The translations under genes and the position numbers were made by a program. Of a DNA stretch of 64,000 bases, positions 57,175-57,678 are shown in pieces. A model generated the notes under the pieces. The model saw nothing but the letters and a program-made list of their open reading frames with translations, did not search any database and was not told the origin of the DNA. The first letter of the stretch is position 1. The number at the start of each line of letters is the position of its first letter. This DNA is from Escherichia phage Ecwhy_1. Where the stretch lies: the sequence record MH791411.1, one strand, 5' to 3'.

Positions 57175-57678
57175 TTATTTTACTTTGACAGTACAGGTTA
57201 CCTTCTTACCCTGGAATTCAACTTTCTGGACATACGTTACGTTACCCAAACGACTAACGAATGATTCCATTGCATCAACGTTGTTTTGGATAACAGTTGC
57301 GTTTGTGCCGCGACCTGTGGTTTTCATTACAATGTGTACTTGCTTACCTTCTTCTAGGAACTTACCTGCACTTTTCGCTTTAATAAGCAAATCATGCTCT
57401 TGAGTTCCGAAGTTGAATTGAATCTCTTTAGTACTAACAGTGTTTTGACGCTGTTTCTTCAGAGAGGCTTTTTCAGCCTGTTTCAATTCGTATTTGAATT
57501 TGTTCAGATCAGTGATTTTAACAGCAGGTTCATCACCTGCTCCAATAACCACCAAATCCAGACCTTCATTTTCTGCTAAAGCAAGTGCTTTAGAGATTGC
57601 CATGACTTCACTTTTACCTTCCGTAACTAAACGAACAGTTTTTGCGGTGATTTCGTTATTGGCAATAATAGATTTCAT
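57175..57678 (-). CDS. infC: translation initiation factor IF-3 homolog
   Basis: Aligns along its length with bacterial IF3 from memory: VRLV..G...[20 protein letters not shown]...[15 protein letters not shown] ... [13 protein letters not shown]...[18 protein letters not shown]. Confidence 0.75.

What the first reader, a model, noticed from the sequence alone, without database searches (positions are those of the whole stretch)
57175..57678. Phage-encoded translation initiation factor IF-3 homolog
The 167-aa product aligns along its whole length with bacterial IF3 (N-domain, linker and C-domain). Phage-encoded translation initiation factors are uncommon. A phage IF3 could bias start-codon or mRNA selection toward phage transcripts; several genes in this window use GTG starts or overlapping ATGA junctions.
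Basis: partly seen in the sequence, partly recalled or inferred. Interest (0 to 1): 0.7.

Follow-up and report, generated by a model that had tools for sequence, protein, structure and literature searches.

The report
Jumbo-phage IF3 with altered start-codon loop

Summary
The ORF at 57175-57678 (minus strand, 167 aa, ATG start) is real and is a full-length IF3. It passes the curated cutoffs of both Pfam domains and of the infC equivalog model. A confident AlphaFold model superposes on ribosome-bound Thermus IF3 (TM 0.79).

It is not new. The window is 99.9% identical to Escherichia phage vB_Ec-M-J (Asteriusvirus), where the identical protein is annotated as "translation initiation factor". PHROG 9787 covers it, and papers from 2017 to 2025 mention it. 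Its function is untested.

What I add:
1. The gene is under purifying selection (dN/dS 0.07) and sits behind a perfect sigma-70 consensus promoter. It uses ATG, not the host's autoregulatory ATT.
2. Bacteria keep F130, R/K131 and E134 of the RFRGRE loop, and Y/F70, in 77-80 of 80 genomes. R131 contacts the start codon, and R131P relaxes fidelity. The whole RaK2-like clade has replaced them (KTTGRG, L70).
3. Viral IF3 genes are flanked by Clp genes and bS21, never by thrS, rpmI or rplT (34 of 62 viral clusters against 0 of 80 bacterial, p=5e-16). The window carries a reduced form: IF3, ClpS-like, KTSC.

The parts
57175..57678 (-). IF3 (infC-like) coding sequence, 167 aa, ATG start, TAA stop
   Evidence: ORF list. 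Pfam IF3_N and IF3_C, and TIGR00168, all above curated cutoffs. 100% identical to WGM49641.1 / EcMJ_399 of phage vB_Ec-M-J.
57466..57660 (-). N-terminal domain (residues 7-71). It keeps R16 (= E. coli R25) and K54 (= R66), the initiator-tRNA elbow contacts. The hairpin loop is 2 residues shorter (Q33 and L34 absent), and Y70 is replaced by L58.
   Evidence: Pfam IF3_N; residue table; role of R25/Q33/R66 from PMC9723500; Y/F70 present in 80 of 80 bacteria against L in every clade member.
57436..57465 (-). Lys-rich interdomain linker (about residues 72-81; the predicted helix spans 58-78). It is 2 residues longer than in E. coli. Y63 (= E. coli Y75) is kept.
   Evidence: AlphaFold secondary structure; alignments; role of Y75 from PMC7145577 and PMC5037330.
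57184..57435 (-). C-terminal (30S-binding) domain, residues 82-165. It keeps K84, E85, D96, K100 (= K110), F107, G111, G122 and R123 (= R133).
   Evidence: Pfam IF3_C; beta-alpha-beta-alpha-beta-beta fold; Foldseek hits to 1tig, 2ife and 6vrj; conservation table.
57307..57324 (-). Remodelled codon-inspection loop K119-T120-T121-G122-R123-G124, in place of the bacterial R/x-F-R/K-G-R-E (E. coli 129-134).
   Evidence: Read directly from the sequence (AAA ACC ACA GGT CGC GGC). Pairwise alignments to E. coli IF3. Bacterial baseline F130 79/80, R/K131 79/80, E134 77/80. The clade is never basic at 131.
57689..57692 (-). Shine-Dalgarno core GGAG, 10 nt upstream of the ATG, in an unstructured leader
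   Evidence: Sequence. GGAG is invariant in five phages of three genera. Leader MFE -1 kcal/mol, no more structured than shuffles. No Rfam family matches.
57723..57751 (-). Perfect sigma-70 consensus promoter TTGACA-17-TATAAT (12 of 12). The -35 element overlaps the stop codon of the upstream ORF.
   Evidence: Promoter scan. Nine exact matches in the window against 0.22 expected, all on the minus strand. The -35 element and a -10-like element are kept at the same position in 121Q, RaK2, GAP32 and XbC2.
56616..57161 (-). Diverged ClpS-domain protein (181 aa) starting 13 nt after the IF3 stop, so probably co-transcribed
   Evidence: PHROG 15940. Pfam ClpS is weak here (15.6 bits, E 0.014), but the GAP32 orthologue scores 41.8 bits, above the cutoff of 23. 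A viral ClpS probe hits 56835-56957. It lies directly downstream of IF3 in all 15 RaK2-like viral contigs.
55996..56541 (-). KTSC-domain protein (181 aa), third member of the conserved trio
   Evidence: Pfam KTSC 51.9 bits. Conserved position in 121Q, RaK2, GAP32, XbC2, L012 and 15 of 15 RaK2-like viral contigs.

Best explanation
The gene encodes a functional, ribosome-binding IF3 paralogue that the phage makes for itself. It is most likely transcribed by host RNA polymerase from its own consensus sigma-70 promoter and translated from an AUG with a GGAG Shine-Dalgarno sequence. That lets it escape the AUU-start feedback loop that caps host IF3. It should occupy the IF3 site on host 30S subunits, with the C-domain at the P site and the N-domain on the platform and the initiator-tRNA elbow. 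From there it would supply the anti-association and initiation-complex functions.

The loop that reads the start codon in bacterial IF3 (F130, R131, E134) has been replaced throughout this phage clade. I therefore think the phage factor applies a weaker or altered start-site checkpoint than host IF3: it reprogrammes initiation rather than simply adding to it. One possible benefit is that it tolerates the re-initiation on which the phage's many overlapping genes depend.

It is co-expressed with a diverged ClpS-type adaptor and descends from a virus-only IF3 lineage that is typically flanked by ClpX, bS21 and ClpS. This suggests a combined module for taking over initiation and proteolysis.

Shown here: homology, fold, conservation of core residues, purifying selection, the motif replacement, promoter and SD consensus, ATG start, synteny and virus-specific gene linkage.

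Inferred: 30S binding, early timing, the effect on fidelity, and any functional link to Clp.
For: IF3 identity and fold.

Core residues: every position that is at least 87% conserved in 141 diverse IF3s is retained (N16, I19, A42, A46, D52, L53, P63, K72, Y75, K94, E95, D106, K110, F117, G121, V124, G132, R133). The tRNA-elbow contacts R25 and K/R66 are kept too.

Selection and descent: dN/dS is 0.07 against 121Q and 0.14-0.23 for more distant pairs. Synteny is conserved across Asteriusvirus, Alcyoneusvirus, Mimasvirus and metagenomic relatives.

Expression signals: a perfect TTGACA-17-TATAAT promoter lies 44 nt upstream of the ATG and is positionally conserved. The leader is unstructured. The start codon is ATG in all six clade genes examined, whereas E. 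coli infC starts with ATT.

Motif: in bacteria F130 is 79/80, R/K131 79/80, R133 80/80, E134 77/80 and Y/F70 80/80. In the RaK2-like clade, position 131 is never basic in any sequence sampled, with Glu in some members. Position 130 is never aromatic, 134 is never acidic and 70 is always Leu. Thermus Arg123 (= E. coli R131) hydrogen-bonds U+2 of the start codon (PMC5037330). R131P promotes initiation at non-AUG codons, on leaderless mRNAs and with 3GC-mutant tRNA. Mycoplasma (P/F/Y at 131) and mitochondrial IF3 (KKGK) are natural relaxed variants (PMC11775629).

Re-initiation: excess canonical IF3 suppresses re-initiation and blocked M13 (PMC2268962), while 35 of 89 same-strand gene junctions in this phage overlap.

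Clp linkage.
Against: No expression, binding or genetic data exist for any member of the clade. The phage's own genes look canonical (96% ATG, 83% with an SD-like core). Only one of nine consensus promoters gives a very short leader. So there is no visible class of phage mRNAs that needs a relaxed checkpoint. K119 (position 129) and R123 (position 133) are retained and could compensate for the loss of R131. A consensus promoter match is not evidence of use. Other phage IF3 lineages keep the canonical loop, so relaxed fidelity is not a general requirement for a phage IF3. The trees are neighbour-joining trees on about 165 columns.
Confidence: 0.6

Rival explanations
1. Plain dosage supplement. 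The phage IF3 behaves like host IF3 with unchanged fidelity. It keeps enough IF3 per 30S subunit (subunit anti-association, recycling, fast initiation) during a long jumbo-phage infection in which host transcription is shut down. The loop changes are neutral drift, compensated by K119 and R123.
For: All universally conserved residues and the whole fold are kept. Phage mRNAs are canonical AUG plus SD. Other phage IF3 lineages keep the canonical loop. This is the reading offered in the literature (PMC5259590; PMC7162821).
Against: Four positions that are 96-100% conserved in 80 bacterial genomes are replaced together and stay replaced across a clade whose members have diverged to 50% identity under purifying selection. 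Some members even carry Glu at 131. Extra canonical IF3 would penalise the translational coupling the phage relies on.
Confidence: 0.25
2. Host shut-off decoy. The protein binds the IF3 site on 30S subunits but is defective in productive start-codon positioning. It therefore competes with host IF3 and depresses translation of host mRNAs more than phage mRNAs.
For: 30S-binding determinants are kept (K110, basic residues at 112, 116 and 168), while the codon-contacting residue is lost. The strong promoter and the absence of autoregulation would allow it to out-compete host IF3.
Against: Phage and host mRNAs share the same AUG/SD architecture, so no basis for selectivity is visible. IF3 is essential for all initiation, so a pure inhibitor would hurt the phage as well. 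The tRNA-elbow contacts needed for productive initiation are conserved.
Confidence: 0.08
3. It acts mainly outside start-site selection, together with the ClpS-like and KTSC proteins, in ribosome rescue, maturation or quality control. Examples would be releasing RbfA or hibernation factors from 30S subunits, or marking ribosome-associated proteins for ClpAP.
For: The IF3, ClpS-like, KTSC trio is conserved. Viral IF3 is linked to ClpX, ClpS and bS21 specifically in viruses. IF3 releases RbfA from mature 30S subunits (PMC7145577). Iyer et al. suggested ribosome rescue for IF3 and KTSC (PMC7824862).
Against: Gene adjacency alone does not show a physical or functional link. The window's ClpS domain is highly diverged (15.6 bits). 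IF3's other activities still need the same 30S binding mode, so this is more an addition to the main explanation than an alternative to it.
Confidence: 0.1
4. A recently captured host infC, carried as a passenger or decaying gene.
For: None beyond the homology itself.
Against: Identity to E. coli IF3 is only 41% over 120 aa. dN/dS is 0.07. The gene holds a fixed syntenic position in phages of Escherichia, Klebsiella, Cronobacter, Xanthomonas and others. The RaK2-like clade is monophyletic in 200 of 200 bootstraps, inside a virus-only super-clade that contains none of 81 bacterial sequences. No thrS, rpmI or rplT neighbours are present.
Confidence: 0.01

Closest known systems
IF3 of RaK2-like jumbo phages (121Q gp47, RaK2 ORF153, GAP32_313, CBB_318, Sharanji WNN14575.1, vB_Ec-M-J EcMJ_399; PHROG 9787)
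   Same: It is the same gene. The protein is 100% identical to EcMJ_399 and 90% identical to 121Q gp47. It has the same synteny and is annotated as translation initiation factor IF-3. It is mentioned in PMC5259590, PMC7824862 and PMC11895373.
   Different: Nothing differs in the gene itself. The loop replacement, promoter, ATG start, selection analysis and Clp linkage reported here did not appear in the papers I could search.
Bacterial IF3 (E. coli InfC, PDB 8jsg; Thermus thermophilus IF3 on the 30S subunit, PDB 5lmn)
   Same: Two-domain architecture, linker, fold (TM 0.79) and all universally conserved residues, including R25, Y75, D106, K110 and R133.
   Different: KTTGRG replaces RFRGRE. 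L replaces Y70. The N-domain hairpin is 2 aa shorter, the linker 2 aa longer, and there is a 3-aa insertion before C-domain helix 2. The start codon is ATG, not ATT. The gene is not in a thrS-infC-rpmI-rplT operon. The E. coli N-terminal extension is absent.
Relaxed-fidelity IF3 variants: E. coli R131P, Mycoplasma IF3 (P/F/Y at 131), mammalian mitochondrial IF3 (KKGK motif)
   Same: Loss of the arginine that contacts the start codon, within an otherwise intact IF3.
   Different: Those systems use non-AUG starts, leaderless mRNAs or unusual initiator tRNAs. This phage's genes are 96% AUG with SD, and its CAT-anticodon tRNA is not an initiator. The phage variant's phenotype is untested.
IF3 of Agrobacterium phage Atu_ph07 / Sinorhizobium phages Phosso and AP-J-162, and the metagenomic ClpX-IF3-bS21-ClpS modules
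   Same: Phage-encoded IF3 next to Clp components. They fall in the same virus-only IF3 super-clade in the NJ tree.
   Different: They keep the canonical [FL]-[RK]-G-R-E loop. They have ClpX directly upstream and usually bS21 directly downstream. The window phage has neither ClpX nor bS21 in 64 kb, and none was detected in Escherichia jumbo phages. It has a KTSC gene instead.
Phage-encoded ribosomal protein bS21 (Pelagibacter phage HTVC008M, huge phages)
   Same: Another bacterial initiation-related component encoded by phages and proposed to redirect host ribosomes (PMC7162821). It is physically linked to viral IF3 in 18 of 52 non-RaK2 viral IF3 clusters.
   Different: It is a different protein and is absent from this window.

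Membership tests
Translation initiation factor IF-3 (InfC; TIGR00168, Pfam IF3_N + IF3_C) | IF3 N-terminal domain | tested here: met
   PF05198, 59.6 bits against cutoff 26.9, residues 7-71. Foldseek hits to 1tif and 6o6d.
Translation initiation factor IF-3 (InfC; TIGR00168, Pfam IF3_N + IF3_C) | IF3 C-terminal domain with the beta-alpha-beta-alpha-beta-beta fold | tested here: met
   PF00707, 47.2 bits against cutoff 34.8, residues 82-165. Model elements E83-89, H94-109, E113-119, H127-143, E147-155, E159-166. Foldseek 1tig TM 0.82.
Translation initiation factor IF-3 (InfC; TIGR00168, Pfam IF3_N + IF3_C) | Full-length equivalog score | tested here: met
   TIGR00168.2, 101.7 bits against cutoff 60.
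Translation initiation factor IF-3 (InfC; TIGR00168, Pfam IF3_N + IF3_C) | Two domains joined by a long, Lys-rich helical linker (dumbbell shape) | tested here: met
   Helix 58-78 and linker [13 protein letters not shown]. Full-length superposition on 5lmn_X, TM 0.79.
Translation initiation factor IF-3 (InfC; TIGR00168, Pfam IF3_N + IF3_C) | Universally conserved functional residues (R25, K/R66, Y75, D106, K110, G132, R133; E. coli numbering) | tested here: met
   The phage protein has R16, K54, Y63, D96, K100, G122 and R123 at these positions. In 80 bacteria the counts are R25 77, K/R66 80, Y75 80, K110 74, R133 80.
Translation initiation factor IF-3 (InfC; TIGR00168, Pfam IF3_N + IF3_C) | Codon-inspection loop F130-[R/K]131-G-R-E134, and an aromatic residue at position 70 | tested here: not met
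   The phage has T120, T121, G124 and L58 at these positions. In bacteria F130 is 79/80, R/K131 79/80, E134 77/80 and Y/F70 80/80. The replacement is fixed across the whole RaK2-like clade.
Translation initiation factor IF-3 (InfC; TIGR00168, Pfam IF3_N + IF3_C) | Binds the 30S subunit, prevents subunit association and proofreads the start codon and initiator tRNA | not testable with these tools
   Needs biochemistry or genetics. I found no published test for any phage IF3.
Bacterial infC gene organisation | thrS-infC-rpmI-rplT context and a non-canonical AUU start used for autoregulation | tested here: not met
   The phage gene starts with ATG and lies between a 64-aa ORF and a ClpS-like gene. 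E. coli infC starts with ATT, between thrS and rpmI. Among 80 bacterial loci, ThrS was found at 48, L35 at 50 and L20 at 58, against 0 of 80 viral loci.
PHROG 9787 (phage 'translation initiation factor') | Full-length profile match | tested here: met
   E 1e-66, 224.9 bits, residues 1-167 on profile positions 1-167 of 168.
Viral ClpX-IF3-bS21-ClpS module (defined here) | IF3 flanked on the same strand by ClpX upstream and by bS21 and ClpS downstream | tested here: inconclusive
   The window has only a diverged ClpS-domain gene directly downstream of IF3. There is no ClpX, ClpP or bS21 in 64 kb. Its IF3 nevertheless groups with all 24 module-linked viral IF3s in a virus-only clade. In 90.5% of 200 bootstraps, at least 10 of them join it before any bacterial sequence does. 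This is consistent with a reduced derivative.

The most novel reading that the evidence does not exclude
The RaK2-like IF3 is a virus-evolved initiation factor whose start-codon checkpoint has been deliberately disabled or retuned, through loss of F130, R131, E134 and Y70. It is the reduced end-point of an ancient virus-only IF3 lineage that travels with ClpX, bS21 and ClpS as a module for taking over ribosome initiation. In this reading the phage swaps in its own initiation components and uses Clp adaptors or unfoldases to remove or remodel the host counterparts.
Probability: 0.25. Interest if true: 0.75.

Novelty: already known. Interest (0 to 1): 0.42.

Why it matters
The existence of this gene is not news. 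It is annotated in dozens of deposited jumbo-phage genomes and mentioned in several papers.

What could matter is the question it makes testable. IF3 is the fidelity gatekeeper of bacterial initiation. Here a natural family of IF3 variants has lost the near-invariant residues that touch the start codon, yet remains under strong purifying selection in phages that infect E. coli K-12 and other tractable hosts.

Testing it (complementation, AUU/AUG and leaderless reporters, re-initiation assays, cryo-EM on E. coli 30S subunits) would show whether phages retune the host's start-site checkpoint. It would also give a natural structure-function series for the RFRGRE loop.

The virus-specific linkage of IF3 with ClpX, bS21 and ClpS points to an unexplored connection between translation-initiation takeover and Clp proteolysis in large phages. 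It is seen in 34 of 62 viral IF3 clusters and 0 of 80 bacterial loci, and it is present in the cultured phage Atu_ph07.

Tried and rejected
1. Phage initiator tRNA matching a relaxed 3GC check. The only CAT-anticodon tRNA (15101-15179, minus strand) has a G1-C72 pair and C-G rather than G-C pairs in the anticodon stem. Its C4-G69 and C5-G68 pairs suggest an Ile2-type tRNA, so it is not an initiator.

2. Leaderless phage mRNAs. The distances from the -10 element to the start codon for the nine consensus promoters are 95, 461, 97, 34, 246, 17, 123, 49 and 44 nt. Only one is short.

3. Non-AUG starts. There are 2 GTG and 2 TTG among 94 annotated genes. My crude rule of taking the first start codon in each ORF overcounted these.

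4. Recent capture from the host. Rejected.

5. Regulatory RNA or structure in the IF3 leader. No Rfam match and no stable fold.

6. T4 MotA-box reading of the invariant TGCTT that overlaps the -35 element. By my count its distance to the -10 element is 19 nt, not the roughly 12 nt of T4 middle promoters, and most of the other eight consensus promoters lack TGC upstream. Rejected.

7. A first NJ tree with unlabelled database proteins gave only 64 of 200 support for the exact clade membership. A Biopython run timed out. I replaced both with a tree of 80 named bacterial and 62 dereplicated viral IF3s.

8. Loss of R131 as a general phage trait. Rejected. Atu_ph07, Phosso, two huge metagenomic phages and 56 of 65 other viral IF3s keep K/R at 131.

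9. The single bacterial "ClpX" neighbour was a weak 82-aa AAA hit on the opposite strand of a normal infC-rpmI-rplT locus.

10. A weak MA3-domain hit in the 523-aa neighbour (E 0.0078, below threshold) was ignored.

11. Searches for experimental work on phage IF3, or for the RFRGR motif in phages, found nothing.
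Full report
**1. Observation.**
- Its product passes the curated thresholds of both IF3 Pfam domains. IF3_N covers residues 7-71 at 59.6 bits against a cutoff of 26.9. IF3_C covers residues 82-165 at 47.2 bits against 34.8.
- It also passes NCBI's infC equivalog model (101.7 bits against 60).
- phmmer finds E. coli, Geobacillus and Thermus IF3 chains in the PDB at about 1e-16. A profile of the phage family finds them at 1e-46 to 1e-50 over the full length.
- An AlphaFold2 model built on 23 homologues has mean pLDDT 85.7. It shows an alpha/beta N-domain, a long helical linker and a beta-alpha-beta-alpha-beta-beta C-domain.
- Foldseek superposes the whole chain on Thermus IF3 bound to the 30S subunit (5lmn_X, TM 0.79, E 3.9e-13).

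The observation and the homology claim are confirmed.

**2. Provenance and prior knowledge.**
- Three kilobases around the gene are 99.9% identical to Escherichia phage vB_Ec-M-J, a 378.6 kb Asteriusvirus. They are 98-99% identical to eight other coliphages and about 85% identical to the 121Q/PBECO4 group.
- The identical protein is deposited as EcMJ_399 "translation initiation factor". PHROG 9787 matches it end to end (1e-66).
- Ninety-three of 50,697 phage records encode a relative. These include every RaK2-like jumbo phage of Escherichia, Klebsiella, Salmonella, Erwinia, Yersinia, Serratia, Cronobacter, Pectobacterium and Xanthomonas.
- The gene has been noted in print. The CBB paper lists homologues in GAP32, 121Q, PBECO4 and RaK2 (PMC5259590). 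Al-Shayeb et al. list IF1 and IF3 among huge-phage translation genes (PMC7162821). Iyer et al. mention IF3 together with a KTSC protein (PMC7824862). The Sharanji paper states that its function in phages "cannot be definitively stated" (PMC11895373).
- I found no experimental test.

As stated, the finding is therefore already known.

**3. It is a maintained phage gene, not a recent host capture.**
- Identity to E. coli IF3 is 41% over 120 residues.
- The order RNase H, Dda helicase, two small ORFs, IF3, ClpS-like, KTSC, structural protein is the same in 121Q, RaK2, GAP32 and XbC2 (three genera).
- The same order holds in a metagenomic relative whose IF3 is only 50% identical, and in 15 of 15 RaK2-like IMG/VR contigs.
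- dN/dS is 0.07 against 121Q and 0.14-0.23 for deeper pairs, where dS is saturating.
- In a neighbour-joining tree of 80 named bacterial IF3s, E. coli and 62 dereplicated viral IF3s, the RaK2-like clade is monophyletic in 200 of 200 bootstraps.

**4. Expression signals.**
- A perfect TTGACA-17-TATAAT promoter lies at 57751..57723 on the gene's strand. Its -35 element overlaps the stop codon of the upstream ORF.
- Nine such exact matches occur in the window, all on the minus strand, against 0.22 expected.
- The -35 element and a -10-like element occupy the same position in 121Q, RaK2, GAP32 and XbC2. The GGAG Shine-Dalgarno core and ATGAAA are invariant.
- The roughly 38-nt leader is unstructured and matches no Rfam family.
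- All six clade genes examined start with ATG. E. coli infC starts with ATT. From established knowledge, that ATT is the basis of IF3 autoregulation.
- I infer that the phage copy is made from a strong host-type promoter and is exempt from the feedback that limits host IF3. Promoter use and timing are not shown.

**5. What is conserved and what is not.** I compared three sets: 26 clade members, 141 diverse IF3 representatives from a 1.8-billion-protein library, and 80 IF3s extracted from named bacterial genomes of many phyla.
- The phage protein keeps every universally conserved position. These include R25 and K/R66, which contact the initiator-tRNA elbow (PMC9723500). They also include Y75 (the linker residue mutated to Y75N in infC362; PMC7145577), D106, K110 (K110L does not bind), G132 and R133.
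- Four positions that are nearly invariant in bacteria are replaced throughout the clade. In bacteria F130 is 79/80, R/K131 79/80, E134 77/80 and Y/F70 80/80.
- The window protein reads K119-T120-T121-G122-R123-G124 and has L58 at position 70.
- Across all the RaK2-like sequences sampled, position 131 is T, S, A, V, I, Q or even E, and never K or R. Position 130 is never aromatic, 134 is never acidic, and 70 is always Leu.
- This is the loop that reads the start codon. In the Thermus 30S pre-initiation complexes, Arg123 (E. coli R131) hydrogen-bonds U+2 and Arg125 (R133) lies near +4 (PMC5037330).
- R131P increases initiation from non-AUG codons, on leaderless mRNAs and with 3GC-mutant initiator tRNA. 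Mycoplasma IF3 (P/F/Y at 131) and mitochondrial IF3 (KKGK) are natural relaxed variants (PMC11775629).
- The change is specific to this lineage. Atu_ph07, Phosso, two huge metagenomic phages and 56 of 65 other viral IF3s keep K/R at 131 and nearly all keep GRE.
- I found no paper that mentions this loop in a phage IF3.

**6. Does the phage need a relaxed checkpoint?** Not obviously.
- In the deposited annotation for 50 kb of the window, 90 of 94 genes start with ATG (2 GTG, 2 TTG) and 78 have an SD-like core.
- Only one of nine consensus promoters would give a very short leader.
- The CAT-anticodon tRNA is not an initiator.
- The ATGA argument points the other way. Thirty-five of 89 same-strand junctions overlap, 16 of them as ATGA. 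Overexpressed canonical IF3 markedly reduces re-initiation at coupled genes and blocked M13 growth (PMC2268962).
- A phage that raises IF3 activity while depending on coupling might benefit from an IF3 with a softened checkpoint. This is inference, and it is the step I am least sure of.

**7. Genomic context led somewhere unexpected.**
- The ORF 13 nt downstream of IF3 (56616-57161) is a diverged ClpS-domain protein. Pfam ClpS scores only 15.6 bits here, but 41.8 bits (cutoff 23) for the GAP32 orthologue.
- In Atu_ph07 and Phosso, IF3 lies directly downstream of ClpX.
- I scanned IMG/VR with the family alignment and obtained 80 viral IF3 loci. I probed them with E. coli and viral Clp and ribosomal proteins.
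- After dereplication at 90% there are 52 non-RaK2 IF3 clusters. Nineteen have ClpX ending 30-80 nt upstream. Eighteen have bS21 immediately downstream. Seventeen have ClpS within 0.3-1.7 kb downstream. Twenty-four have at least one Clp gene.
- The order is always ClpX, IF3, bS21, ClpS on one strand.
- Pfam confirms all four genes in two independent contigs of 192 kb and 240 kb, surrounded by ORFans.
- The cultured phage Atu_ph07 has a looser version running across its record origin: ClpX, IF3, a bS21-like ORF annotated as hypothetical, and then, after several other genes, a Clp adaptor.
- Control: in 80 bacterial infC loci with 3 kb flanks, ThrS was found at 48, L35 at 50 and L20 at 58. ClpS and bS21 were found at none. 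The one ClpX hit was spurious.
- None of the 80 viral loci has ThrS, L35 or L20. Counting dereplicated clusters gives 34 of 62 viral against 0 of 80 bacterial (Fisher p = 5e-16).
- In the tree, the largest virus-only clade containing the window's IF3 has 40 members: the 11 RaK2-like sequences, all 24 Clp-linked viral IF3s and 5 other viral IF3s, with no bacterium. In 90.5% of bootstraps, at least 10 Clp-linked IF3s join the window's IF3 before any bacterial sequence does.
- Within that super-clade, Y70 is already mostly lost and F130 is often Leu, while R/K131 and E134 persist.
- The RaK2-like lineage then lost R131 and E134. It has no ClpX or bS21 next to IF3: none in the 64 kb window, and none detected in Escherichia jumbo phages. 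It carries a KTSC gene instead.
- One paper noted clpX next to IF-3 in a single phage (PMC11242549). I found no description of the general pattern.

**8. Mechanism, committed.**
- Most likely (0.6): the protein is a working IF3 that binds host 30S subunits in the canonical way. It is made independently of host autoregulation and applies a weakened or altered start-codon checkpoint.
- Within that explanation, I put about 0.35 on a measurable relaxation of fidelity, and less on the specific benefit for translational coupling.
- Co-expression with a ClpS-type adaptor, and descent from a Clp/bS21-linked viral IF3 lineage, suggest that taking over initiation and redirecting Clp proteolysis are coordinated. 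No data show a direct link.
- The rivals are a plain dosage supplement (0.25), a role in ribosome quality control or rescue together with ClpS and KTSC (0.10), a shut-off decoy (0.08) and a passenger gene (0.01).

**9. Verdict.** The finding is real and correctly identified, but already annotated and published, so on its own it is ordinary. The follow-up adds two leads that appear to be unreported and are directly testable in E. coli: a fixed replacement of the start-codon-inspection loop, and a virus-specific IF3-Clp(-bS21) gene linkage. Both lift its interest to moderate.

Noticed in passing
L050:1261-3650, L031:1209-3736, and 24 of 52 dereplicated non-RaK2 viral IF3 loci among L029-L093; Atu_ph07 L009 + L177: A recurrent same-strand gene module, ClpX, IF3, ribosomal protein bS21, ClpS, occurs in uncultivated large phages, with a looser version in cultured Agrobacterium phage Atu_ph07. 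It is absent from 80 bacterial infC loci. It appears to be undescribed as a general pattern.
   Followed up: partly
window 56616-57161 (-): The ORF directly after IF3 is a highly diverged ClpS-domain protein (181 aa, with an N-terminal extension of about 60 aa and a C-terminal extension of about 40 aa). In the alignment to ClpS2, only part of the N-degron pocket motif (NDDYTP in ClpS2, DDPTTS here) is kept, so it may not bind classical N-degrons.
   Followed up: partly
window 55996-56541 (-): A KTSC-domain protein (Pfam 51.9 bits) completes a conserved IF3, ClpS-like, KTSC trio in all RaK2-like phages examined. Deposited records annotate it variously as 'DnaJ-like' or hypothetical.
   Followed up: partly
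window 7384-7411, 14015-14042, 17987-18015, 18132-18159, 23476-23505, 25337-25365, 34481-34509, 39525-39553, 57723-57751 (all -): Nine perfect TTGACA-N16-18-TATAAT promoters occur against 0.22 expected by chance, all on the coding strand. The phage evidently relies on consensus host sigma-70 promoters across this region, which includes many short ORFan genes and the tRNA cluster.
   Followed up: partly
window 25319-25365 (-): One consensus promoter ends only 17 nt before the ATG of a 195-aa ORF, with no Shine-Dalgarno sequence in between. This would be an mRNA with a very short leader, the one candidate in the window that a relaxed IF3 might favour.
   Followed up: no
window 15101-15179 (-): The tRNA called Met(CAT) has a G1-C72 pair, C4-G69 and C5-G68 pairs, four C-G pairs in the anticodon stem and an 11-nt D-loop. 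It is not an initiator and looks more like a lysidine-type tRNA-Ile2 that would read AUA.
   Followed up: partly
window 13570-13643 and 13650-13723 (-): There are two tandem tRNA-Thr(TGT) genes 6 nt apart. The near-identical phage vB_Ec-M-J annotates a single tRNA-Thr next to an HNH endonuclease. The window is about 1.2 kb longer than that record between IF3 and the tRNA(CAT), so the window comes from a different isolate with indels in the tRNA region.
   Followed up: no
protein P0149: A 1,611-aa metagenomic protein matches the start of the IF3 C-domain (query residues 79-119) in 14 separate stretches. It appears to be a tandem array of IF3_C-like repeats.
   Followed up: no
phage records of the PA5oct group: Pseudomonas jumbo phages related to the RaK2 group (PA5oct, MIJ3 and others) encode bS21 and a ClpX homologue, but only one Pseudomonas record was visible among the listed IF3 hits (33 rows were not shown). 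Different subsets of the IF3/bS21/Clp set may be kept in different jumbo-phage lineages.
   Followed up: no
L018-L021 (IMG/VR RaK2-like contigs): Some clade members read M-A-[VI]-E-G-R in the loop. They have lost the basic residue at position 129 as well and carry Glu at 131, the most extreme departure from the bacterial RFRGRE.
   Followed up: no
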